64,000 nucleotides of DNA from Squalus acanthias (taxonomy: Eukaryota), in assembly GCA_030390025.1 (NCBI GenBank), contig CM059432.1, forward strand, positions 6,386,001 to 6,450,000. Reading direction: 5' to 3'. Shown here one piece after another: positions 3,485 through 59,595 of this stretch. The position numbers were made by a program, and so were the translations under genes. Within the stretch, counting starts at the first letter, position 1; each line of letters begins with the position of its first letter. Under the pieces are notes generated by a model that worked only from the letters and a program-made list of their open reading frames with translations, was not told the origin of the DNA and did not search any database.

Positions 3485-4666
3485 AGTTCCTAAGACTGCA
3501 TACATTATATTCTTCCAACATTTTTTTTAAAAAAGGAACTACCAATGACTGTAACCTTCCAGTGTTTGGAGTTGCTGCTAACTTTGTTGAGGTATTTTAG
3601 TAATGTTCATTGTGAGCGAAGTTCTTCATTGTTCATGAATGTCGTCTGAACCACAAGTCTGTATTAAAGTTTGTAACTCACTCCGTTACTGTGTATGCTA
3701 GGTAACATAACAGTTGATCTTTGAGCAAGAATTCTCAGAGACTTTATTAATCATATTGAAATATTCAGTTGTACTTAAAGGCAAAGGGACGTCTAGGGGA
3801 GCACTTCTTAATTTCCTAGTAGTGATCTGCCATTAAGTATCTCCATGTCTTTATGGGTACTGCAATGACCTAATTGATGGGGAGAGACAACAACTTGTGT
3901 TTATATAGCGCCTTTAACGTAGGAAATCGTCCCAAGGCGCTTCACAGAGGTGGAATCAAACAAAAATTGACAATGAGCCAAACAAGGAGATATTAGGATG
4001 GGTGACTTAAAGCTTGGTCAAAGAGGTAGGTTTTAAGGAAGGTCTTAAAGGAGGAAAGAGAGGTGGGGAGACGGAGGTTTAGGGAGAGAATTCCAGAGCT
4101 TAAAGTCTAGACTGCCGAAGAGGTTCGGTAACATAGTGGTAATGTTACCGGACGAGTAATCCAGAGGTCTGGGCTAATAATCAGGTGACAAGAATTCAAG
4201 CCCCACTACGGCAGCTGGGGAATTTAAATTCAGTTAATTAAATAAAAATCTGGAATAAAAAGCTAGTATCAGTAATAGTGACCATGAAACTACCAGATTG
4301 TCATAAAAACCCATCTGGTTCACTAATGTCCTTTTGGGAAGGAAATCTGCCATCCTTACCTGGCCTGTATGTGACTCCAGAACCACAGCAACCTGGTTGA
4401 CTCTTAACTGCCCTCTGAAATGGCCTAGCAAGCCACTCAAGGGGAAATAGGGATGGGCAATAAATGCTAGCTTTGCCAGCGAAGCCTGCATCCCTTGAAC
4501 GAATAAAAAAAAAAGTTACCAATGGTGGGGCGAAGTGAGTGGGAATTCACAAGAGGTCAGAGTTGGAGGAAAGATTAATTCCTTAAGGGGGGGTTGTAGG
4601 GCTGGAGGAGGTTGCATAGATGGGGAGGGGCGAGGTCATGAAGGGATTTGAACATGAGGATGAGAA
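3485..4666 (+). repeat. Donor copy (A) of a local inverted duplication
   Basis: Reverse complement of 12996-14753, including ~350 bp of non-repetitive sequence. Confidence 0.95.
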
Positions 4667-5185: not shown

Positions 5186-5437
5186 AGTGGCTGTATTGAA
5201 TTTAATGGGTGTCATAACTTTGGACTGTTCTGGGAGCTGATCCACAGTTATTCAACTTTTGGGAATACACAACACAATTTAACAATGTGGTAACAAGAGG
5301 TGAACAATCTTGTGACACCTGTTATTGCATCTGGTACTTTGTCGTTTGACAATATGGGGATTATACCCCATAAAACGCTATGCTGACTAACTCCATTAAA
5401 GCAAGAGCTGGATGAGCACCAGAATGGGATTGAAATA

Positions 5438-5792
5438 CAGGAAACTCTTTATTAACCGGGACCGGCGTGGTGCCGGTTAATCAAAAAGTCCGGATAACGG
5501 AGAGTTATATCTCCCAACGTACGAGAGCCCCGTACACATTGACATGCGCCTGCATTCGGAGCTCCGTCTCCCCGGGGACCGCCAGCTGACCATCTGTCGT
5601 GTCCGCTGCCTACCCGGGCTGCACATTCCCCTCCCAATCTACACGCTCCGATACAAGGCAAACGCCTCGGGGTTTTTTTTAAAGTTAATTTTAAACGAGA
5701 GATGAAGGAAAACCCCGGTTACCTACTCAAGAATTTTGCCGGTTAAGAGAGATTTCCGGATATTTGGGTGCCGGTTAATAAAGAGTTTCCTG
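5438..5792. mobile_element. Tc1/mariner (pogo/Tigger-like) MITE, 355 bp
   Basis: Perfect 22-bp TIR caggaaactctttattaaccgg flanked by TA on both sides; repeated subterminal ccggttaa motifs. Confidence 0.9.
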
Positions 5793-6342
5793 TATGTTAA
5801 TGAGAGATCGGGATGATTAGCTGCTGTACAAATCATGATCCAGCTTGAGATCATGGGAATGTCATCATGGAGTTCAACTGCTCAGAGTTGCATTGTGGAG
5901 ACCATATTACCTTGGAGCTTTTATTCGACTATCTTTAGCCGATCTTGGGGACAGTCATGATTAACATGGCCATGTGCCATGATCTGAATTTTCTAAATGG
6001 AGTTATTGCACTTCATTGAGGCAGCACATTTTCATTTAATGAAATGAAAACCGAATTGTAGTGACTCCAGATGTTCAACAAAACTTTTAGACATCTGCCT
6101 TGCACATAATGTGATCCAAATAAGAACCACTCTTCACTTATTTTCAAGTTTGTATAAGCAGTGAGACAAAATAATAATTCAATGGAAACCACTTCTTTGT
6201 TCTAATTGAAGATGAAAAAAAAATTCTAATCCAGTTCAATTTAAAGGTTGTGCAATATGTGTATAAATGCATGCAAATGTTTCGGTTGTTGCAAACAATG
6301 TTCCCTTGGTGTGGCTTATCCAGATTTGTTGTTGTTTTGCAG

Positions 6343-7089: not shown

Positions 7090-7650
7090 CTTCACTCTGC
7101 TGAAACCCTCATCCATGCCTTTGTTACCTCTAGACTTCACTATTCCAACCCACATTCTACCCTGCATAAACTTGAGGTCATCCAAAACTCTGCTGCCCCG
7201 TGTCCTAACTTGCACAAAGTCCCGTTCACCCATCACCCCTGTGCTCGCTGACCTCCATTGGCTCCCGGTTAAAATTCTCATCCTTGTTTTCAAATCCCTC
7301 CGTGGCCTCATCCCTCCCTATCTCTATAATCTCCTCCAGCTCCACAACTCTTCGAGATATTTGCGTTCCTCTAATTCTGGCCTCTTGAGCATCCCTGATT
7401 TTAATCGCTCAACCATTAATGGCCGTGCCTTCATCTGCCTAGGCTCTAAGCTCTGGAATTCCCTCCCTAAACCTCTCCGCCTCTCTTTCCTCCTTTAAGG
7501 CGCTTCTTAAAACCTTCCTCTTTGACCAAGCTTTTGGTCATGTGCCCTAATTTCTCCTTATGTGGCTTGGTGTCAAATTTTGATTTATAACACGCCTGTG
7601 AAGCACCTTGGGACATTTTACTACGTTAGAGGCGCTGTAGTTGGTGGTGG
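7090..7650 (+). mobile_element. L2 LINE 3' fragment
   Basis: PITPVLADLHWLPV...RYLRSSNSGLLSIP...GRAF...KLWNSLP followed by the L2 tail. Confidence 0.88.
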
Positions 7651-12995: not shown

Positions 12996-14753
12996 TTCTC
13001 ATCCTCATGTTCAAATCCCTTCATGACCTCGCCCCTCCCCATCTATGCAACCTCCTCCAGCCCTACAACCCCCCCTTAAGGAATTAATCTTTCCTCCAAC
13101 TCTGACCTCTTGTGAATTCCCACTCACTTCGCCCCACCATTGGTAACTTTTTTTTATTCGTTCAAGGGATGCAGGCTTCGCTGGCAAAGCTAGCATTTAT
13201 TGTCCATCCCTATTTCCCCTTGAGTGGCTTGCTAGGCCATTTCAGAGGGCAGTTAAGAGTCAACCAGATTGCTGTGGTTCTGGAGTCACATACAGGCCAG
13301 GTAAGGATGGCAGATTTCCTTCCCAAAAGGACATTAGTGAACCAGATGGGTTTTTATGACAATCTGGTAGTTTCATGGTCACTATTACTGATACTAGCTT
13401 TTTATTCCAGATTTTTATTTAATTAACTGAATTTAAATTCCCCAGCTGCCGTGGTGGGATTTGAACTCTTGTCACCGGATTATTAGTCCAGACCTCTGGA
13501 TTACTAGTCCAGTAACATTACCACTATGTTACCGTTCCCTCTTCGGCAGTTTAGACTTTAAGCTCTGGAATTCTCTCCCTAAACCTCCGTCTCCCCACCT
13601 CTCTTTCCTCCTTTAAGACCTTCCTTAAAACCTACCTCTCTGACCAAGCTTTAAGTCACCCATCCTAATATCTCCTTGTTTGGCTCATTGTCAATTTTTG
13701 TTTGATACTTAATGGCAGATCACTACTAGGAAATTAAGAAGTGCTCCCTTGGACGTCCCTTTGCCTTTAAGTACAACTGAATATTTCAATATGATTAATA
13801 AAGTCTCTGAGAATTCTTGCTCAAAGATCAACTGTTATGTTACCTAGCATACACAGTAACGGAGTGAGTTACAAACTTTAATACAGACTTGTGGTTCAGA
13901 TGACATTCATGAACAATGAAGAACTTCGCTCACAATGAACATGACTGAAATACCTCAACAAAGTTAGCAGCAACTCCAAACACTGGAAGGTTACAGTCAT
14001 TGGTAGTTTCTTTTTTAAAAAAAAATGTTGGAAGAATATATTGGCCCGTATTTTCCAGTCGCAGGCCTCCCGCGGGCAGAGGCCTGCGATCTGGAAAAAT
14101 CTACGCCCCTACCTGAGGGCTCCCGGGACGCGCACGCTTCTGCTCCTGGGCCTCTCCAAACTCCAAGTGCGCAGGGCCCACGTATCCCAGGGGCGCATGT
14201 AGTTCGCAGCGTCTCTGGGATCACGTGGGCCATGGGGAGCCAATCACAGAAGGGAATCTCCCTTCATACATTTGACAGGATGACCTAGTAAAACTTTAAA
14301 TAAATTTTTTTTTAAAAATCACATTTTTAAAATGACTTGAAATTGCAATAAATTAAGTATTTTAAACAAAATTTAATTTTTTGAAAATAATTTACGGGGC
14401 TAAAAATAAACTTACCTTTTTTTAAAGTATTTTTAAACGATAAATCAGTGAAATTTTTTTTTTTACTTTTTTGAACTCTCATCCTGGTAAAAGCAGGCCT
14501 TACGCTTTTGCAAGGATAAGAATTGTAAGGGTTTTCTGCGGGCGGAGGGTCTCCAAAAAGCGGAACTATCCGCCCGCAGAGGCCCTTCTCCAGTGCAGCC
14601 AGAGCATCTGTCAAGACCATTCTTGACCGATCGGAAATGCTGGTTTTCAGTGCATGAGCTGTGCATGCCTGAAACCGGCATTTCCGATGTCCCTACGGGT
14701 ACCCACCCGTAGGGATCGGAATATCTGGGCCAATGTATGCAGTCTTAGGAACT
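12996..14753 (-). repeat. Inverted duplicate (B) of 3485-4666, with a 116-bp deletion and a later MITE insertion
   Basis: Direct reverse-complement match; carries copies of the nested SINE and L2 pieces. Confidence 0.95.
14043..14731. mobile_element. PIF/Harbinger-like MITE (family B) inserted in duplicate B
   Basis: TIR ggcccgtattttcc / ggaatatctgggcc; flanks ATT/AAT; the empty site in copy A carries a single AAT. Confidence 0.88.
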
Positions 14754-20742: not shown

Positions 20743-20910
20743 GTTATGTACAGAGCCTGATTAGGCGTGTTGTGAACAATGTAAACATTGTAGTAAACAA
20801 CCTCATCTTGAAGTATGTGGAGGACGACATTGTGCTGTCAGTCAACATTACATCAGCAGAATGTTACACAGTGGATGAGTTTTGGGATCGAGCCTTCATG
20901 GACATCTTAG
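20743..20910 (+). CDS. VPS13B: VPS13B coding exon (exon 5 equivalent), YVQSLIRRVVNNVNIVVNNLILKYVEDDIVLSVNITSAECYTVDEFWDRAFMDIL
   Basis: ctgtAG acceptor and GTgagt donor; 168 bp; near-identical to the recalled VPS13B N-terminal region; phase 1-1. Confidence 0.97.
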
Positions 20911-21067: not shown

Positions 21068-22786
21068 AACAACAACCTGCATTTATATAGTGCCTTTAAC
21101 GCAGTACAAATGTCCCCAGGTGCTTTGCAGGAGCATTATCAGACACAATTTGACACCGAGCCACGTAAGGAGATATTAGGACAGGTGACCAAAGGCTTGC
21201 TCAAAGAGGTAGGTTGTAAGGAGGAGAGAGAGGTAGAGAGCAATGTTCCCTTTAAGCTGCGCGGTTGCGTAGCGCTCTGCAGCTCTCGTGCAGCCAGCTC
21301 ACCAGCTTTTTAAATAGGAAAAACCACCCATGTATTTTGAATGGGCCGCGCACTCAAAAAAAAAAAAAAAAAAAAAAAAATTAAAATGAACATTGGCAGA
21401 GAGTTCCAGGGCTAAGAGCCGAGGCAGCTGAAGGTACGGCCGCCGATTGTGGAGCGATTAAAATTGGGGATGCGCAAGAGGCCAGAATTAAATGAGCTCG
21501 GAGATCTTGGAGGGTTGTATGGCTGGGGGAGGTTACAGAGATAGGGAGGGGCGAGGCCATGGAGGGATGAGAATTTCAAAATCGAGGCGTTGTCGGACTG
21601 GGAACCAATGTAGATCAGCGAGCACAGGGGTGATGGGTGAATGGGACTTGGTGCGAGTTAAGATACAGGCAGCAGAGTTTTGAATGAGATCAAGTTTATG
21701 TAGGGTCGAAGATGGAAGGCCGGCTAGGAGAGCATTGGATTAGACTAGTCTAGAGGTGACAAAGGCATGGATGAGGGTTTCAGCAGCAGATGAGCTGAGG
21801 CAGGGTAGAGTCGGGCGATGTTACGGAGGTGGAAATAGGCAGTCTTGGTGATGGCGCGGATATGTGACCGGAAGCTCATCTCGGGGTCAGATACGACACC
21901 AAGATTATGAATGGTTTGGTTCAGCCTCAGACATTTGCCAGGGAGAGAGAGATGAAATCGGTGCCAGGGAATGGAATTTGTGGTGGGACTGAAGACTATG
22001 GCTTTGGTCTTGCCAATATTCAGTTGGAGGAAATTTCTGCTCATCCAGTACTGAATGTCGGACAAGCTGTGTGACAAATCCGAGACAGTGGAGGGGTCGA
22101 GAGAGATGGTAGTGTGGTAGAGCTGGGTGTCGTCAGTGTACATGTGTTTTCGGATGATGTCGACGAGGGGCAGCATGTAGATGAGAAATAGGACGGTGGA
22201 TAGATCCTTGGGGGACTCGAGTACCCCAGTGCGGGAGTGGGAAGAGAAGCCATTGCAGGTGATTCTTTGGCTACGACTGGATAGATAAGAATGGAACCAG
22301 GCGACAGAAGTCCCACCAGCTGGACGATGGAAGAGAGGCCAACCATCTCATAAGGCTGAAGACAGGCCGAGAAGGATGAAGGGGGATAGTTTACCTTTGT
22401 TACAGTCACATAGGATGTCATTTGTGACTTTAAGAGCTGTTTCAGTACTGTGGTGTGGCGGAAACCTGATTGGAGGGATTCAAACATGGAGTTACGGGAA
22501 AGATGGGCATGGATTTGGGAGGCGACAATAGATTCAAGGACTTTGGAGAGGAAGGGGAGGTTGGAGATTTGTCAGTAGTTTGCAAGGACAGAGGGTTCAA
22601 GGGTGGTTTTTTTTTGAGGAGAGGGATGATGATGGCAGATTTGAAGGGGAGGGGAACAGTACCTGAGGGGAGGGAACCATTAATAATATCAGCTAACAGA
22701 GGGGCCAGGAAGGGAAGTTGGTTGGTCAGCAGTTTGGTGGGAATATGGTTGAGGGAGCATGAGGTGGGTCTCCTGGACAGGATGAG
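21068..22786 (-). mobile_element. L2 LINE, long degraded fragment including the RT region
   Basis: FESLQSGFR, HMYTDDTQLY and WMSRNFLQLNIGKTK motifs; L2 tail near 21070. Confidence 0.9.
21241..21395. mobile_element. hAT-type MITE (same family as 2337-2491) nested in L2
   Basis: caatgttc...gaacattg TIR; 8-bp TSD gtagagag / gcagagag. Confidence 0.85.
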
Positions 22787-23681: not shown

Positions 23682-24150
23682 GTGTCAGCCGCGGCTCAGT
23701 GGGTAGCACCCTCGCCTCTGAGTCAGAAGGTTGTGGGTTCAAGTCCCACTCCTGAGACTTGAGCACATAATCTAGGCTGACACTCCAGAGTAGCACTGAG
23801 GGAGTGCTGTACTGTCGGAGGTGTCGTCTTTCGGATGAGACGTTAAAACGAGGCCCCGTCTGCTCTCGGGTAGATGTAAAAGATCGTATGGCCACTATTT
23901 CGAATAAGAGTAGGGGAGTTATCCCCGGTGTCCTGGGGCCAATATTTAACCCTCAATCAACATCACAAAAACAGATTACCTGCTCATTATCACATTGCTG
24001 TTTGTGGGAGCTTGCTGTGTGCAATTGGCTGCTGCGTTTCCTACATTGTAACAGTGACTGCACTTCAGAAAATACTTCGTTGGCTGTAAAGCGCTTTGGG
24101 ACATCCTGAGGTTGTGAAGGGCGCTATAGAAATGCAAGTCTGTCTTTGTT
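23682..24150 (+). mobile_element. Full-length Deu-domain SINE
   Basis: Pol III A box (ggctcagtggg) and B box (ggttcaagtcc), Deu core, L2-derived tail. Confidence 0.92.
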
Positions 24151-25848: not shown

Positions 25849-28472
25849 CTAATTAGAACAGTACAGCACAGTACAGGCCCTTCGGCCCTCGATGTTGTGC
25901 CGAGCATTGTCCGAGACCAAGATCAAGCTATCACACTCCCTATCACTCTGGTGTGCTCCATGTGCTTATCCAATAACCGCTTGAAAGTTCCTAAAGTGTC
26001 CGACTCCACTATCACAGCAGGCAGTCCATTCCACACCCCAACCACTTTCTGAGTAAAGAATCTACCTCGGACATCCCTTCTATATCTCCCCCCATGCACC
26101 TTATAGTTATGCCCCCTTGTAACAGCTGCCTCTACCCGAGGAAATAGTCTCTGAACATCCACTCTATCTATCCCCCTCATCATCTTATAAACCTCTATTA
26201 AGTCGCCTCTCATCCTCCTCCGCTCTAAAGAGAAAAGCCCCAACTCCCTCAATCTTTCCTCATAAGACCTCCCCCCAAACCAGGCAGCATCCTGGTAAAT
26301 CTCCTTTGCACTCTTTCCAATGCTTCCACGTCCTTCCTATAGTGAGGTGACCAGAACTGCACACAATATTCCAAATGTGGTCTCACCAAGGTCCTGTACA
26401 GTTGCAGCATAACCTCACGGTTCTTAAACTCAAACCCTCTGTTAATAAACGCCAACACACCATAGGCCTTCTTTACTGCTCTATCCACTTGAGTGGCAAC
26501 CTTCAGAGATCTGTGGATATGAACCCCCAGATCCCTCTGCTCCTCCACGTTCCTCAGAACCCTGCCGTTGACCCTGTAATCCTTATTCAAATTTGCCCTA
26601 CCAAAATGAATCACCTCGCACTTATCAGGGTTAAATTCCATCTGCCATTTTTCGGCCCAGCTCTGCATCCTATCAATGTCTCTTTGCAGCCTACAACTGC
26701 CCTCCACCTCATCCACTGCTCCACCAATCTTGGTGTCATCAGCAAATTTACTGATCCACCCTTCAGTCCCCTCCTCCAAGTCATTGATAAAAATCACAAA
26801 CAGCAGAGGACCCAGCACCGACCCCTGTGGCACACCGCTGGTAACTGGTCTCCAGTCCGAAAATGTTCCATCCACCACCACCCTCTGCCTTCTATGAGAT
26901 AGCCAGTTACTTATCCAATCGGCCAAATTTCCCTCTATCCCACAACTCCTTACTTTCTTCATGAGCCGACCATGGGGAACCTTATCAAACGCCTTACTAA
27001 AATCCATGTATACGACATCAACTGCTCTACCTTCATCTACACACTTAGTTACCTCCTCAAAGAATTCAATCAAATTTGTTAGGCAAGACTTACCCTTCAC
27101 GAATCCGTGTTGACTATCCCTGATTAAGTTGCCCCTTTCCAAATGGTCATAAATCCTATCCCTCAGGACCTTTTCCATTATCTTACCAACCACCGAAGTA
27201 AGACTAACCGGCCTATAATTACCAGGGTCATTCCTATTTCCTTTCTTGAAGAGAGGAACAACATTCGCCACTCTCCAGTCCTCTGGCACCATTCCCGTGG
27301 ACAGTGAGGACCCAAAGATCAAAGCCAGAGGCTCTGCAATCTCCTCCCTTGCCTCCCAAAGAATCCTAGGATATATCCCATCTGGCCCAGGGGACTTATC
27401 GACCCTCAGGTTCTTCAAAATTGCTAAAACATCTTCCCTCAGAACATCTACCACCTCCAGCCTATCCACCTTTATCACACTCTCATCCTCAAGAACATGG
27501 CCCCTCTCCTCGGTGAACACTGACGAAAAGTATTCATTCATCACCTCTCCTATCTCTTCTGACTCCATGCACAAGTTCCCACTACTGTCCTTGACCGGCC
27601 CTACCCTCACCCTGGTCATTCTTTTATTTCTCACATAAGAGTAAAAGGCCTTGGGGTTTTTCTTGATCCGACCCGCCAAGGACTTCTCATGCCCCCTCCT
27701 AGCTCTCCTAAGCTCTTTTTTTAGCTCATTCCTTGCTACCTTGTACCCCTCAATCGACCCAACTGGACCTTGTTTTCTCATCCTTACATACGCTTCCTTT
27801 TTCCTCTTGACTAGACATTCAACCTCTTTTGTGAACCATGGTTCTCTCACTCGGCCATTTCCTCCCTGCCTGACAGGGACATACCTATCAAGGACACGCA
27901 GTAATTGCTCCATGAAAAAGCTCCACTTTTCGTTTGTGCCTTTCCCTGATAGTTTCTGTTCCCATCTTATACTCCCTAATTCTTGCCTAATCGCATCATA
28001 ATTACCCCTCCCCCAATTATAAACCGTGCCCTGCCGTATGGCCCTATCCCTCTCCATTGCAATAGTGAAAGTTACCGAATTGTGGTCACTATCTCCAAAG
28101 TGCTCTCCCACATACAAATCAAACACTTGGCCCGGTTCATTACCCAGTACCAAATCCAACGTGGCCCCAGCTCTTGTCGGCCTATCCACATATTGTGTCA
28201 GGAAACCCTCCTGCACACACTGTGCAAAAACTATCCCATCCGAACTGTTTGACCTATAAAGGTTCCAATCAATATTTGGAAAGTTGAAGTCACCCATGAC
28301 AACTACTCTGTGACCTCCACACCTATTCATAATCTGCTTTGCAATTTCTTCCTCCACATCTTTATTACTATTTGGGGGCCTGTAGAAAACTCCTAACAAC
28401 GTGACCGCTCCTTTCCTATTTCTAACTTCAGCCCATATTACCTCAGACGGCAGATCCCCCTCGAACTGCCTT
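25849..28472 (-). mobile_element. Young 5'-truncated CR1 LINE with near-intact ORF2 (endonuclease C-terminal part plus reverse transcriptase)
   Basis: 716-aa open frame with [37 protein letters not shown] and FADD motifs; one frameshift near 26270; the ORF continues in 25923-26252. Confidence 0.97.
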
Positions 28473-29302
28473 TGTTGACTGAATTATGTTGACAGAAAAT
28501 ATAACTTTCTAATGAGTGATACTAGTGCAACAGCGAGAGGGAGAGAGAGAGAGACACGGACATAAATAGTGAATGTTTTTTCTCATTTTAATTTTAGTTT
28601 TTAGAATAAAAACATAGTTTACTTTTGAAAGCAGAATACCTCCACTTATCACATGATTATTACCTACATATTGTTAATAGTTAAAAAAAAATTAGTATGT
28701 GGGCACCACTGGCAAGGTTGGCATTTATTGCCCTTCCCTAGGTGTCCTGAGAAAGTGGTGTGGAACCATCTTTTTGAACCACAGTAGTCCATGGTAATAA
28801 CATGTATTTAAGTTTTATCCCTTGTCATTTTACAATCGGAGAATACACAGTCAGCTGATGTGCAAGGTGCAGTAGTTGAAGGTAGGTATCTGGTATGTAG
28901 TAATAATAGAGAGGGGACTGGAGTTTAGTTGCACCTGGGGATATTTGTTGGGTGGGGGTGGGGGGTAGTCCTAGACTTTGATAACGCTGAAGGGTGGTCC
29001 TAGGCTTTGGTTGCACTCATGGCTTCTTGGTGTCTGTCAGCTGTGATGGAAGGAGGGTGGGGGGAAGGGTTACACATGCCTGATAGCACTGGGTGGAAGT
29101 GAGGTTCTCCCATGTCTGACAGTACTAGTTTATTTTCAACTTTTTAGAGATCTCTGCATGGTGTTTTGTAATTCATTCTTTGGGGTGTATGGCTGTGTCG
29201 ATTGGTGTATTTTTTCTTTTTTTCTCTCTCGCTTTGTTTTCTTTTCTCTCTCTCTCTATTTTGTTTCTCCTTTTCTTTTCCCCTCTATCTTTCTCTTTAT
29301 TA

Positions 29303-30017: not shown

Positions 30018-30199
30018 CTCCAGAATTGGTATTGAGGAAGGTGATCAACTTTTCTGATTGCACTGTTTGCCTGGACAAGCGAAATGCAAGTGGAAAGATT
30101 GAGTTTTACCAGGACCCTTTGCTCTACAAATGCTCCTTCTGCACCCGATTGCACTTTACCTATGACAACCTCAACTCTAAAATTCCATCCATCATCAAG
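30018..30199 (+). CDS. VPS13B: VPS13B coding exon (exon 6 equivalent), APELVLRKVINFSDCTVCLDKRNASGKIEFYQDPLLYKCSFCTRLHFTYDNLNSKIPSIIK
   Basis: cttcAG acceptor and GTacgt donor; 182 bp; phase 1-0; strong match to VPS13B. Confidence 0.97.
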
Positions 30200-30768
30200 G
30201 TACGTATCTAAGAGCATTTTGTATTCGTAGGGCGGGGCAGACTGAATTATTATTGGGGAATGATTGCAGAAGAGTTTAAGTAGGTGTTAATGGCCAGTTT
30301 TCAAGTACCAAATGTATATGTCACAGCACTTCATCAGTTTTGTGCATCTTGAGATAATACATTTTCAGAAATATGACTTTTCAACATGCTGATTGTACAA
30401 TGTCATTTTTAAGAATATTTCTGTAGAGCTGTGTATACTCTTAAAATGTAAATAAATATGCAAACTCGTTGCATCTAAAAACCTTTAAAAAAATTACATG
30501 CAATTTTTTCCAGTGGAAGAAAATGTTGTTCAAATGGAGTGTGTTTAATCTTCAGAAACATCTTGCATAAATCCTGTTGATGGTCTTCTTTCCTGTATCT
30601 TAAATTTGAAATTAGTTAAGTTGATGATGTGAGTATGGCACAGTGGGATCCCAGGAATTCTTTCTGATAAGATTATGTGGAATGCAGGTGGGTAATGGAA
30701 TTCAGTTACCTTTGAATTCGGTAATATTTCATGAATGAAGGAATCAGTCAAAGCAAATACAGACTTCA

Positions 30769-31190
30769 AGTGTCAACTGTGGCTCAGTGGGTAGCACCCT
30801 CGCCTCTGAGTCAGAAGGTTGTGGGTACAAGACCCAGTCCAGGGATTTGAGCACCAAAATCTCGGCAGTACTGAGGGAGTGCTGCACTGTCGGAGGAATG
30901 GCTTAGCTGGCGCCTCACTGCCCTCTCTGGTGGACGTAAAAGATCCTATTGCACTATTTCGAAGAAGAGCAGGGGAGTTATCCCCGGTGTCCTAGCCAAT
31001 ATTTATCCCTCAATAACATCACTAAAATAAAACAGATTATCAGGTCATTATCACATTGTTGTTTGTGGGAGCTTGATGTGCGCAAATTGGCTGTCACGTT
31101 TCCGACATTAGAACAGTGACTACACTTCAAAAAGCACTTTAGGACGTCCAGTGGTTGTGAAAGGAGCTATATAAATGCAAGTCTTTCTTT
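30769..31190 (+). mobile_element. Deu-domain SINE carrying a foreign internal patch
   Basis: A/B boxes, Deu core and tail; 30894-30924 replaces part of the consensus. Confidence 0.9.
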
Positions 31191-31359
31191 TTTTCTTTTC
31201 TTTTACACATAGTTTTTTTCTTTCACACCATTCTGTGTTCGCTCTTGAAATAACCAGAGATTTTTATACAAGGCAAGTTGATGGTGAACAATTACAAATG
31301 CGAATTTAGTGTTACTAGAAGTTTGTGATGCAAATTAAACAAAAGAATAGAGGATTTTT

Positions 31360-42002: not shown

Positions 42003-42177
42003 ATCCAGGCTCTTGTTGAAAGTTTGAAACTCTCCATCACAGACCAACAACTTCCTATGCTTATCCGTATAATTCAGCTTGGCATTGCACTCTACTATGG
42101 TGAAATTTGCTCTTACAAAGATGTAGAAGTGGAAGAAATAAGTTCCAATGCAAAGGAGACATCCATTACTCAAATGG
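42003..42177 (+). CDS. VPS13B: VPS13B coding exon (exon 7 equivalent), IQALVESLKLSITDQQLPMLIRIIQLGIALYYGEICSYKDVEVEEISSNAKETSITQM-G
   Basis: Polypyrimidine tract plus ccacAG acceptor, GTaggt donor; 175 bp; phase 0-1; matches VPS13B LVESLKLSITDQQLPM. Confidence 0.96.
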
Positions 42178-43275: not shown

Positions 43276-44162
43276 GACCTCTTCCCTTGTGCCAGTTCAC
43301 CTGCATGAGATGGGAAATGGTTCATAGTGTAGGGGGTTATGGGGAAAGAGGATGGGAAATGCTTTCCTTGAAAATTTTGGGGAAAATTGTGAAATCTGAC
43401 ATAACTCCTTTGCAGCTTCATGACAGCTGTAGTTGAAATTGTTGTAATACAATTCAAGTATCGCAATGAGGTAGCACATCGTAAATCTCCAAACCAGGAA
43501 ATGGTTGTAATTCTGATTCCTAAAGTACCGTAATTATGTTGTCTTTATAACAATTATATTGATTATGTAGTTTATTGGCCACAAGTGCTGTACGATTAAA
43601 TCTCGTTTTACTTGTGCTCAAGATGGCTCTAACAGAAGGAGGAACATTTACGCACCTGGAGTACGATCTAAGATTCATCTAATGTTGGGGGAACTAGTTG
43701 TAAAACAACGAGTAAACTATCTTGTAGACAAAGGATTATTGTACCCCAGGTGTGTTTTTTTATATATAGAACCTATGTTTTATTTTCTCAGAGAGGAAAT
43801 AAAATTATGAATGTTTTCTTTTCGCCAGAAATGCAGTACAGTTTCCTGTAATGACACAGCAGTGTGTGTCTCTGTAGCCTTTACAGCAAAGTACAGGTAC
43901 TGTACTTTAAGTGTAGTCACTGCTGTAATGCTGGTGATAAAAAAAAATTGAACTGTGAACTATTGTTCGAAGTGTGTGATAGTGTTTGATGGTATATAGG
44001 TAAACATTTATTCAATTCTGTTACGTGAATTCTGCTCTGTTATCTTGCCTGCACACAACGTTTAATACAGATTTAAAAAAAAATCTTTTCCAGAAAAATA
44101 CAAACCTTATTGTTCTATTTTATTGACGCCTCTATACCTGATAAGGTAATAATCTTGAGCAG

Positions 44163-44630
44163 ACAGCTATGGCTCAGTGGATAGCACTCTTGCCTCTGAG
44201 TGAGAAGGTTGTGGGTTCAAGTCCCACTCCAGGGACCTGAGCACAAAATCAAGGCTGACACCGCATAGCAGTTCTGAGGGAGCGCTGCACTAACAGAGAT
44301 GCTGTCTTTCGGATGAGATGTTAAACCGAGGCCCCATCTGCTTTGTCAGGTGGATGTAAAAGATCCCATGGCACTATTCGTAGAAGAGCAGGCGATTTCT
44401 TCCCGGTGTCCTCCCAATATTTGTCCCTCAACCAACATCACTAAAACAGATTATCTGGTCATTATCACATTACTGTTTGTGGGAGCTTGCTGTGTGCAAA
44501 TTGGCTGCCGCGTTTCCTACATTACAGCAGTGACTACACTTCAAAAGCACAGTACCTGTACTTTGCCTGTAAAGCGCTTTGGGATGTCCTGAAGTCGTGA
44601 AAGGTGCCATATAAAGGTGTTTTCTTTCTT
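44163..44630 (+). mobile_element. Full-length Deu-domain SINE
   Basis: A/B boxes, Deu core, tail. Confidence 0.9.
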
Positions 44631-54149: not shown

Positions 54150-55160
54150 TCTTATCTCTCTAATTCCTCCAGGCCTACAACACACCGCCCCCCCCCCCCC
54201 AAACTCTCTGTTCTTCTGTGCATCACCGCTCCGTTCACCTCACCATTTTGGGGTGCCTGGGCCCCATGCTTTGGAATTTCCTTTTGAAACTCCTCTGTCC
54301 GTCCACCTCCCTCCTCCTTTAAGAGTCTTTTTAAAAAACCGCGTGTTTGACCAAGCTAAAATGAAAGCGCATGGAATTGCAGACACACTTGCAACATGGA
54401 TTGGAAATTGGTTAGGAGTCAGAGTAAGGATAAAGGGAATGTTCTCTGATTGGTGGAATGTGACAAGTGGTGTTCTCCAGGGATCTGTACTGGAGCCTCA
54501 GCTTTTCACCATATTTATAAATGATTTGGATGAAGGAACCCTCATCCATGCCTTTATCACCTCTAGACTTGACTATTCCAACGGACTCCTGGCTGGCCTC
54601 CCTTGTTCTACCCTCCACAAACTTGAGGTCATCCAAAACTCTGCCACCTGTGTGCTAACTCGCACCAAGTCTTAGTAATAGAACGGATATGAAGTAGGGG
54701 AGCTCAATTCGTCCTGCTCACCCATCTCCCCTGTGCTTGCTGACCTACATTGGCTCCCAGTTAAGCAATGCCTGAATTTTAAAATTCTCATCCTTGTTTT
54801 CAAATGACTCCATGGCCTCCACCCTCCCTATCTCTGTAATCTCCTCCAGCCCACGATCCTCGGAGATATCTGCTCTCCTCTAATTCTGGCTTCTTCAGCA
54901 TCCCTGATTTTAGTCGCTCAACCATTGGTGGCCGTGCCTTCAGCTGCCAAGGCCCTACGCTCTGGAATTCCCTCCCTAAACCTCTCCGCCTCTCTTTCCT
55001 CCTGTAAGACACTCCTTAAAACCCACCGTTTCGTCATCTGCCCTAATTTCTCATGTGGCTCGGTGTCAAATTTTGTTTTGTAACGCTCCTGTCAAGTGCC
55101 TTGGGACGTTTTACTCCGTTAAAGGTGCTATACACATGTAAGTTGTTGTTGTTGTTGTTA
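54150..55160 (+). mobile_element. Mosaic of L2 fragments with a CR1 RT fragment (~54357-54537)
   Basis: CR1 [26 protein letters not shown] fused to L2 [23 protein letters not shown]2 tail near 55140. Confidence 0.8.
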
Positions 55161-58000: not shown

Positions 58001-58166
58001 ATAGCAAAATACTGCGGATGCTGGCAATCCGAAATAACAACAGAAAACGCTGGAAAAACTCAGCAGGCCAGGCAGCATCCATGGAGAGAGAAACAGAGTT
58101 AACGTTTCAGCTCGAAGACCTTTCGTCAGAACTCTGACGAAAGGTCTTCGACCTGAAACGTTAACC
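58001..58166 (-). mobile_element. Short Penelope-like insertion with an inverted end and a 15-bp TSD
   Basis: TSD atgatatattttatg at 57986-58000 and 58167-58181; 68-bp palindrome at 58098-58165. Confidence 0.75.
58097..58165. ncRNA. Candidate minimal type-I hammerhead ribozyme cores, one per strand
   Basis: CUGACGA-(A)-AGGUC/UUC/GACCU-GAAAC-GUU on +; AGUU-CUGACGA...GAAACGUU-AACU (4-bp stem I) on -. Confidence 0.5.
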
Positions 58167-59595
58167 ATGATATATTTTATGTTCTGTAACTTCGTTGTTT
58201 TACTGTTTTCTAAATATTGCACATGCTACCAATGTTCCAGTCCAACCGTAGCGCTCATTTTGTGGTTTATATCTCTTATCCTTACAGACAATAGGTCTGC
58301 AGAGCTGATTCTTCACAAGTTCCACGAAATTAAAATTGTCAATTTGTAATTTAACGCGATTTATAATTTAGTTTGCTGAAAGGCGTTATATTGTGGCTCG
58401 AGTGTCACATCTTACACTAGTTATAAAAGGAATGGCTTAGCTGACGCCTCACTGTCCTTTAACCTAGCAGAGCTAATGATGGCCGTTTCATTTAGCCAAG
58501 GAATACTATTTGTTGGTAACTTTAAAGCAGATTTAACCTGAAATTCTTTTTTGTTTCAGTCCTCGGGTCATAGAGAGGTTTGATATGAATATTTAATTTA
58601 ACACTGAAATGTTCAAGCTGTGCATCTCCACAGGCTCGTTATTTACAAAAATGGCATCACTTTTGCTTCAGATAATTCTTGTCAAGAATGAGGCAAACGA
58701 GAACCATCATTAGAACATCTGAAAATGCAACGAGGGCAAGATTATATTTTCTTTTGGTGGAATGTTTAGGAGGTTCTCGAAAGAGCTTTCTTTGCGAAAT
58801 GTTTCTTCATTCTAATATATTTATTTTAATGCTCATTAGCGGAAGTGATCTCAGTTCCCATTTATTAGAAGTGTGATTGGAAGCATATATTTTTGAAATA
58901 GAAACCTGTGTTTTATTAAGACTGATCTGTAAAAAGAAGCTAAGAATGAGCAGAGTTGTGTTTAACAGCTGGTCTTAATGCTGGAAAACGTTCCAGGCAG
59001 CAATTATTTAATAGATTGGGGGGGGGGTGGGGAAGCGGGGGAAAGGGGATGTGTTCCATCTGCCAGACAAAATAGTCTATTTGTAAGAAGAGATGAAGGG
59101 TAATGGAAAACTATTAACTGAGATAGCAATTTAAGTTAGTTTGATGCAATCTCTTCTGTTTAGTTGACCAAACTTGGTAACTTGTAATAATCATACCAAA
59201 AATGCTGATGGCAATTTGTTTGGGTGAGCTAAGTGTGTCACATACTTTAGATGGTTGATTCAATTACGAGCTCTGAAGATTGCAAGATATTTGGCTCATC
59301 TTAGTTCATTTGTGCAGAAAAATCCTGAAATTTTCCCATTTGAACAATCCAATTGCTTCAAAAAAGATTCCAGGGTTTTTTCCCTTCACTACTCTTCCTG
59401 GAAGTATATTCTGTACATTGATCACTCCTTGTGTATTGAATTTTCTAACACCAGTCTAATATTTACCTTTGTACTAGTTTGTATCTATGATCTTTACCCT
59501 TCTCTTGCTATTTAACTTAAAGTAATTTCCTAGGTTTACCTTTTATCATTTTCTTAACCATCGTACAAACATAAATAAAATAATTTCTTTCGAGG

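What the first reader, a model, noticed from the sequence alone, without database searches (positions are those of the whole stretch)
30894..30924. 31-bp patch inside a Deu-SINE copied from unique sequence 27.5 kb downstream
Seen: aggaatggcttagctggcgcctcactgccct replaces about 38 nt of SINE consensus and matches 58428-58458 (aggaatggcttagctgacgcctcactgtcct) at 29/31 positions in the same orientation. Microhomologies AGG and CTG(C/T)CCT flank it. Inference: a long-range templated insertion. SINE, donor and gene are all sense, so a template switch onto nascent VPS13B pre-mRNA during SINE reverse transcription, or RNA-templated repair, is an alternative to a DNA loop contact.
Basis: partly seen in the sequence, partly recalled or inferred. 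Interest (0 to 1): 0.72.

Follow-up and report, generated by a model that had tools for sequence, protein, structure and literature searches.

The report
Small repair patch inside shark SINE
One copy of a common shark-type repeat lost 38 bases and gained 21 bases copied from a site 27.5 kb away in the same gene, a real and old but ordinary scar of error-prone DNA repair or copying, with no sign of function.

Summary
30894-30924 matches 58428-58458 at 29/31 on the same strand. The foreign part is only 21 nt (30897-30917, 20/21 to the donor). It replaces 38 nt of SINE consensus and has 3-nt microhomologies at both ends. About 1e-6 such matches are expected by chance in the window. A related species carries the patch in a contig of single-copy depth, and other SINE copies leave the sequence at 30896 and rejoin at 30918. 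An assembly error or a common subfamily variant is therefore unlikely. No whole genome was held, so a rare third source is not excluded. The RNA reading is possible but unsupported: 9 of 10 SINE copies here are sense, so the orientation argument is worth at most twofold. The window holds two more private copy events (donors 0.6 and 8.3 kb away). Both are inverted, and one is much younger than its host repeat. Best reading: microhomology-primed, out-and-back DNA synthesis from a distal template in cis (a delins, or class-2-type templated insertion), about 0.6. A reverse-transcriptase switch onto host pre-mRNA gets about 0.15. Its one support is that 3 of 6 truncated copies start at the left junction.

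The parts
30897..30917 (+). Foreign 21-nt core (templated insert) replacing 38 nt of SINE consensus
   Evidence: 20/21 to 58431-58451; next-best window hits 16/21. Family contigs leave at 30896 and rejoin at 30918. Replaced length.
30894..30896 (+). Left microhomology AGG, shared by SINE consensus and donor
30918..30924 (+). Right microhomology: CTG exact, one mismatch (SINE base kept), then CCT
   Evidence: The donor core also matches the consensus upstream of this anchor at 11 of 21 positions, which about 1% of random 21-mers reach.
30770..31195 (+). Host SINE copy: full length, with A box at 30780, decayed B box, T-rich end, and two further private deletions (14 and 18 nt); 92% identical to the window consensus on both sides of the patch
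   Evidence: Orthologous in organism G, where a flank contig runs from 30562 into the head to 30816.
58428..58458 (+). Donor, intact, in non-repeat intronic sequence. The neighbourhood is CpG-retaining (o/e 1.37 at 58100-58400 and 0.86 at 58300-58600, against 0.43 for the window).
   Evidence: No hit to the SINE profile among 26 nhmmer rows up to E 54.
20743..20910 (+). VPS13-family exon (context; fixes gene orientation)
   Evidence: Pfam VPS13_N E 4.5e-16; borders
30018..30199 (+). VPS13-family exon just upstream of the SINE (context)
   Evidence: Open frame found with recalled short peptide motifs; AG/GT borders; not scanned against Pfam
42003..42177 (+). VPS13-family exon between patch and donor, so the two lie in different introns
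   Evidence: weak Pfam VPS13_N match, E 0.019

Best explanation
A germline break or stalled fork inside an already inserted SINE was repaired by microhomology-primed DNA synthesis that left its own template, copied 21 nt from an intact site 27.5 kb away on the same chromosome, and returned 38 nt further on. The result is a delins with a distal template in cis, of the kind made by polymerase-theta end joining or MMBIR/FoSTeS-type switching. The most economical direction is bottom-strand synthesis. A 3' end complementary to the right anchor annealed to the donor, helped by looser similarity beyond the anchor, which would explain why the SINE base is kept at the mismatch. It then extended 21 nt and re-annealed at AGG. 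Shown: the delins, the donor, both microhomologies, single-copy depth in a relative, and an age older than the split from that relative. Inferred: DNA rather than RNA template, timing after insertion, direction, and the enzyme. No function is implied.
For: Anatomy and statistics. Shared with organism G in an 88-nt contig of depth 13.3, against 11.7 for the unique flank. Two more private copy events lie in the same 64 kb and both are inverted. (a) 3485-4666 was copied into 12996-14753, splitting an older repeat; the copy is 98% identical to its donor while the host arm is 87% to paralogs, so it post-dates its host. (b) 43879-43930 was copied from 44520-44574 (alignment score 86, against at most 42 for the other 9 SINE copies). 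Copying over kilobases in cis therefore occurs here without sense orientation. The host copy has two more private deletions. C. elegans POLQ delins: inserts mostly under 25 bp, primed by 1 bp, about 3% from sites over 1 kb away (PMC5068794, passages). Class-2 templated insertions show microdeletion and microhomology, without TSD or poly(A) (PMC5110952, parts 1-2 of 4).
Against: No species with the SINE but without the patch was found. Organisms I and B gave no cover of the left flank next to the SINE and no listed bridging piece, so timing after insertion is not shown. 3 of 6 truncated copies begin 3-7 nt from the left junction (chance 3e-4 for a given 10-nt window, 0.03 for any; window chosen after seeing the data), which hints at a retrotransposition-linked breakpoint. 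The same orientation is what an RNA template predicts. Onozawa and Aplan argue that most experimental class-2 inserts come from RNA. The two parallel events are longer or closer and need not share the mechanism.
Confidence: 0.62

Rival explanations
1. Made at insertion. The partner LINE's reverse transcriptase, copying SINE RNA 3' to 5' at this site, jumped at the right anchor onto nascent host pre-mRNA (or nearby DNA), copied 21 nt and jumped back to the SINE RNA at AGG.
For: Same orientation. The direction implied by the kept SINE base is that of cDNA synthesis. 3 of 6 truncated copies start at consensus 153-157, next to the left junction at 150. Double template jumps in LINE reverse transcription are reported (PMC2104539, passages). 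So are same-orientation two-RNA insertions (PMC11702581, section 7) and templated patches inside L1 insertions, 22 instances, typically within 15 bp of the site (10.1101/2024.08.27.596794, passages).
Against: Orientation is worth at most twofold, as 9 of 10 copies are sense. The replaced stretch folds no better than shuffles in two intact copies (z -0.57 to +0.96), so no stall structure is shown. The tripartite chimeras in the passages read join three different RNAs and do not return to the first. The two parallel events are antisense to the gene.
Confidence: 0.15
2. Repair after insertion using RNA. A break in the SINE was bridged by synthesis on host pre-mRNA, or on a cDNA fragment of it.
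For: The donor lies in the same transcription unit and in sense. Experimental class-2 inserts were enriched for transcribed sequence and fell more than threefold with RT inhibitors (PMC5110952).
Against: The insert has no splice junction, poly(A) or editing mark. Experimental inserts were 73-414 bp and came from all over the genome, not 21 nt from the same gene. Proximity in cis fits a DNA template equally well.
Confidence: 0.13
3. The true source is a third, unseen site (a low-copy repeat or paralog of the donor), or the match is coincidence after a deletion plus point mutations.
For: No genome-wide search was possible. Contig tables list only 8 pieces per run out of about 330,000, and exact-word contigs would miss diverged paralogs. 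The donor core resembles the SINE consensus at 11 of 21 positions, and the patch core resembles another abundant repeat at 16 of 21.
Against: About 1e-6 matches are expected in the window, and 0.02-0.05 in a 3-Gb genome. 11 substitutions in 21 nt at 8% divergence has p 1.4e-7, and 1.3e-4 at 16%. 16/21 is a normal chance best hit (425 of 1500 controls reached 16 or more). The donor does not score against the SINE profile, and its flanks are not repeated in the window.
Confidence: 0.08

Closest known systems
Polymerase-theta delins with templated inserts, distal class (PMC5068794; passages read)
   Same: Deletion with a short insert under 25 nt, microhomology at both ends, at most one error in the insert.
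   Different: Most such inserts come from the immediate flank; only about 3% map over 1 kb away. POLQ dependence cannot be tested here.
Class-2 templated sequence insertions, TSI/TSIP (PMC5110952; parts 1-2 of 4 read)
   Same: Intact distant donor, microdeletion, microhomology, no TSD or poly(A) at the patch, germline.
   Different: Much shorter than the 73-414 bp experimental inserts, donor in cis in the same gene, shared between species, and RNA origin not shown.
MMB-TI and short-range template switches (PMC8421209, passages; PMC7954356, passages)
   Same: Short germline templated insert between microhomologies, replacing sequence.
   Different: MMB-TIs are defined as inverted copies of a template within 100 bp. 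This one is direct and 27.5 kb away. PMC7954356 states that small-scale non-local switching remains uncharacterised.
LINE reverse-transcriptase chimeras and templated patches in L1 insertions (PMC2104539, PMC11702581, 10.1101/2024.08.27.596794, PMC13174262; passages or one section each)
   Same: Foreign sequence within a retroelement copy, in the same orientation.
   Different: In the passages read the partner is another abundant RNA, or DNA next to the site. An out-and-back jump of 21 nt to an intron of the host gene was not among them. Origin at insertion is unproven here.
SacSINE1-type Deu-SINEs of sharks (host element; PMC5499810 and PMC4824008, passages)
   Same: tRNA-type head with A box, body, and a 3' tail shared with LINE fragments in the window.
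   Different: The Deu domain could not be aligned to the published consensus; the family name is recalled.

Membership tests
Class-2 templated sequence insertion | Donor is distant and remains intact | tested here: met
   Donor 27,534 nt away, in unbroken non-repeat sequence
Class-2 templated sequence insertion | Microdeletion and microhomology at the junctions; no TSD or poly(A) on the insert | tested here: met
   38 nt deleted; AGG and CTG microhomologies
Class-2 templated sequence insertion | Insert maps to a single genomic locus | tested here: inconclusive
   Unique in the window, single-copy depth in organism G, but no genome held
Class-2 templated sequence insertion | RNA-derived template (proposed by the authors) | not testable with these tools
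   Intronic 21-mer with no RNA-processing mark
Polymerase-theta delins | Short insert (under 25 nt) with microhomology at both ends | tested here: met
   21 nt; 3 nt on each side
Polymerase-theta delins | Template in the immediate flank of the break (majority class) | tested here: not met
   Best hit 27.5 kb away; no other window site above 16/21. It fits only the distal class of about 3%.
Polymerase-theta delins | Genetic dependence on POLQ | not testable with these tools
   Ancient germline event
MMB-TI (MMBSearch definition) | Inverted copy of a template within 100 bp | tested here: not met
   Direct orientation, 27.5 kb; definition
LINE-RT template-switch chimera | Parts in the same orientation | tested here: met
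   weak, since 9 of 10 copies are sense
LINE-RT template-switch chimera | Foreign part arrived together with the element | tested here: inconclusive
   G has both SINE and patch; I and B gave no informative cover. Divergence 1/21 (95% CI 0.1-24%) against 8% for the SINE.
LINE-RT template-switch chimera | Whole unit flanked by a target-site duplication | tested here: inconclusive
   Longest shared word in the flanks searched was 5 nt; a TSD would not date an internal patch
SacSINE1-type Deu-SINE (host) | tRNA-derived head with A and B boxes | tested here: inconclusive
   A box at 30780; the B-box pattern was not matched in this copy. ARAGORN and Rfam found nothing in the window.
SacSINE1-type Deu-SINE (host) | 3' tail shared with a partner LINE | tested here: met
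   Profile positions about 350-420 hit the ends of LINE-like fragments at 3880-3948, 7588-7636, 21068-21131 and 55088-55147. The LINE clade was not determined.
SacSINE1-type Deu-SINE (host) | Deu domain aligning to the published consensus | not testable with these tools
   No repeat library; the supplement of PMC5499810 was not readable

The most novel reading that the evidence does not exclude
A LINE-type reverse transcriptase inserting a SINE into an actively transcribed intron made an out-and-back jump onto the host gene's own nascent pre-mRNA, 27.5 kb downstream, using 3-nt microhomologies. SINE copies would then record which RNA was tethered at the insertion site, and a hotspot near consensus position 150 would mark where the enzyme lets go.
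Probability: 0.13. Interest if true: 0.6.

Novelty: new member of a known kind. Interest (0 to 1): 0.22.

Why it matters
As one event it is a neutral scar. Its value is as a specimen of a poorly catalogued class. Very short, non-local templated replacements are normally invisible, and PMC7954356 calls them uncharacterised. Inside a high-copy repeat the consensus gives the ancestral state, and this 64-kb window alone holds three private copy events. A genome-wide census in shark SINEs could measure donor distance, orientation and transcription bias, and so test DNA against RNA templating in a vertebrate germline. If the nascent-RNA reading were right, it would add a route by which retroelements sample their host gene.

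Tried and rejected
Whole-genome search: no genome held.

Assembly error: rejected, since organism G bridges the patch. No bridging piece was listed for the window's own species; that run was about 55% read and also lacks the right flank, so the hole proves nothing.

Common subfamily variant: rejected. Of the other 9 window copies, the 7 that reach this region lack it. 404-603 loose ends per run pile up at 30896, and depth in bin 30897-30926 is 13- to 181-fold below neighbouring bins although 9 of its 30 positions are consensus.

Organisms I and B: no informative cover. 4 of 24 listed runs were laid.

Origin from the other abundant repeat (HE1-like, name recalled; 16/21): chance level.

Deletion plus point mutation only: p at most 1.3e-4.

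Structure-driven stalling: neither the replaced stretch nor the donor folds better than shuffles. Pseudoknots are not modelled by that tool.

Viral or microbial source: 0 exact matches in viral and metagenome contigs. tRNA or Rfam RNA: none. PDB search for the exon: 0 hits.

Donor as a conserved element: untested. The paper search listing showed nothing on this site, and there were no look-alikes among earlier findings.

Searches (listings; two papers opened) showed no description of an out-and-back switch onto host pre-mRNA inside a SINE. That is a limited search, not proof of absence. bioRxiv supplements and that of PMC5499810 were not seen; they bear on template distances and on the SINE's name.

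Notebook entry 3 wrongly calls 3842-3954 a later insert; one search shows it is a deletion in the copy.

Full report
Observation. The 31-mers at 30894-30924 and 58428-58458 match at 29 positions on the same strand, and their flanks do not match. The self-BLAST E-value, which covers all pairs in the window, is 1.3e-5. A pattern search with up to 3 mismatches found only these two sites. Against the other SINE copies the foreign part is 21 nt (30897-30917) and replaces 38 nt of consensus; AGG on the left and CTG(C/T)CCT on the right are shared by SINE and donor. The core matches the donor at 20/21. About 1e-6 such matches are expected in 128 kb. None of 1500 sampled control 21-mers reached 20; they were drawn from 33,398 after dropping repeat-masked and low-complexity ones. 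The next-best hits, 16/21 in another repeat family, are at chance level.

Context. The host is a full-length SINE (30770-31195, +) with an A box, a decayed B box and a tail shared with LINE-like fragments. It is 92% identical to the window consensus on both sides of the patch and has two more private deletions. I recall it as a SacSINE1-type Deu-SINE; the published consensus could not be seen. The gene is VPS13-family on the + strand; the B paralog is recalled. The exon at 42003-42177 lies between patch and donor, so they are in different introns. The donor does not score against the SINE profile. Its neighbourhood retains CpG, which may mean a regulatory element; this is untested.

Is it real and single? 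No genome was held. I laid 4 of 24 listed runs, all contigs, on 30447-31346. In organism G one contig runs from unique flank into the SINE head (30562-30816, depth 11.7, 8 other letters and 3 gaps). Another bridges the patch (30865-30954, 88 nt, depth 13.3, 4 other letters and 2 gaps, 32 and 37 letters on either side). An unpatched copy would need about 17 more letters. So the SINE is orthologous in G, and the patch is there at single-copy depth. Of 68,000-106,000 contigs laid per run, 404-603 loose ends pile up at 30896 and 5 of the 32 listed pieces begin exactly at 30918. That confirms the borders and shows the family at large lacks the patch. Limits: only 1 of the 32 listed pieces bridges the patch, and about 330,000 pieces are not shown. 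No bridging piece is listed for the window's own species (run about 55% read) or for organisms I and B. Diverged low-copy paralogs are not excluded.

Timing. The patch is older than the split from G (about 3-4% flank divergence) and no older than the SINE insertion (8% from consensus). One mismatch in 21 gives a 95% interval of 0.1-24%, so the patch cannot be placed at or after insertion.

Parallel events. A scan for near-exact matches with few partners gave 17 rows. By my reading against, 10 lie inside longer family matches, 2 are segments of a repeat family, 1 is a pair of inverted element ends, and 4 rows make three private events. Besides the patch these are: (a) 3485-4666 copied in inverted orientation into 12996-14753. 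The copy splits an older repeat, is 98% identical to its donor while the host arm is 87% to paralogs, and has a 113-nt skip at an ATC microhomology. Paralogs show that the upstream segment is the original. (b) 43879-43930, an inverted copy of a private variant of the SINE copy 590 nt away (score 86 against at most 42 for the other 9 copies). Copying in cis over kilobases is thus not rare here, and two of three events are antisense to the gene.

Mechanism. Best reading (0.62): microhomology-primed DNA synthesis left the SINE, copied 21 nt from the distal site and returned 38 nt on. The SINE base is kept at the mismatch in the right anchor, and the donor resembles the consensus beyond that anchor at 11 of 21 positions (about 1% of 20,000 random 21-mers do as well). 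Both suggest priming from the right, on the bottom strand. This is inference, and a later mutation in the donor would undo the first point. That direction is also the direction of SINE cDNA synthesis, so it does not separate DNA from RNA. For the reverse-transcriptase reading (0.15): 3 of 6 truncated copies start 3-7 nt from the left junction (chance 3e-4 for that window, 0.03 for any window, chosen after the fact). Against it: the replaced stretch is no more structured than shuffles. RNA-templated repair after insertion (0.13) cannot be told from DNA for one event. A third source or coincidence gets 0.08.

Comparison. It works like a polymerase-theta delins of the rare distal class (about 3% in C. 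elegans; PMC5068794, passages) and like a class-2 templated insertion (PMC5110952, parts 1-2 of 4). It fails the definition of MMB-TI, which requires an inverted template within 100 bp (PMC8421209, passages). Double template jumps and templated patches in LINE insertions are described (PMC2104539, passages; PMC11702581, passages and section 7; 10.1101/2024.08.27.596794, passages; PMC13174262, passages). An out-and-back jump onto host pre-mRNA was not in those passages or evident in the listings of searches. PMC9457163 was opened (passages) and not used. Earlier notes of this scan report similar patches in other genomes; they are unchecked and are not evidence.

Verdict. Real, old and apparently single-copy; a new member of a known kind of repair or replication scar, with no sign of function. 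Interest 0.22. The most novel reading not excluded has probability about 0.13 and would deserve about 0.6.

Noticed in passing
window 3485-4666 and 12996-14753: Inverted copy of about 1.07 kb (98% identical) placed 8.3 kb downstream inside an older repeat. The copy has a 113-nt skip at an ATC microhomology and a roughly 690-nt element with inverted ends (14044-14731) that the donor lacks. The donor LINE fragment has an internal deletion of about 120-180 nt three bases past the end of the copied stretch, which suggests one coupled rearrangement.
   Followed up: partly
window 43879-43930 and 44520-44574: 52-nt inverted copy of a private variant segment of the SINE at 44164-44615, 590 nt away.
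   Followed up: partly
window 8805, 12281, 56324: 3 of 6 5'-truncated SINE copies begin at consensus 153-157, at the foot of a small predicted hairpin and next to the patch's left junction. This may be a truncation or RNA-processing hotspot.
   Followed up: partly
window 30864-30896: In all four runs laid, some contigs go back 33 nt from 30896 to 30864/5, and depth there is the highest of the stretch. A 33-nt SINE segment seems to exist as a tandem repeat elsewhere in these genomes.
   Followed up: no
window, ten SINE copies: 9 of 10 copies are sense to the host gene (p 0.02); unexplained.
   Followed up: no
window 58100-58600: AT-rich non-repeat intronic stretch that retains CpG (o/e 0.86-1.37 against 0.43); candidate conserved regulatory element around the donor.
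   Followed up: no
window 23822-23859 (intact copy of the replaced stretch): By eye, the hairpin loop of the consensus could pair with bases just 3' of the stem, giving an H-type pseudoknot wholly inside the 38 nt that the patch removed. Not tested.
   Followed up: no
window 26249-28483, minus strand: Stop-free 744-codon frame with endonuclease and reverse transcriptase domains, a young LINE fragment.
   Followed up: no
window 5435-5795: 25-nt perfect inverted ends about 310 nt apart; probably a small non-autonomous DNA element.
   Followed up: no
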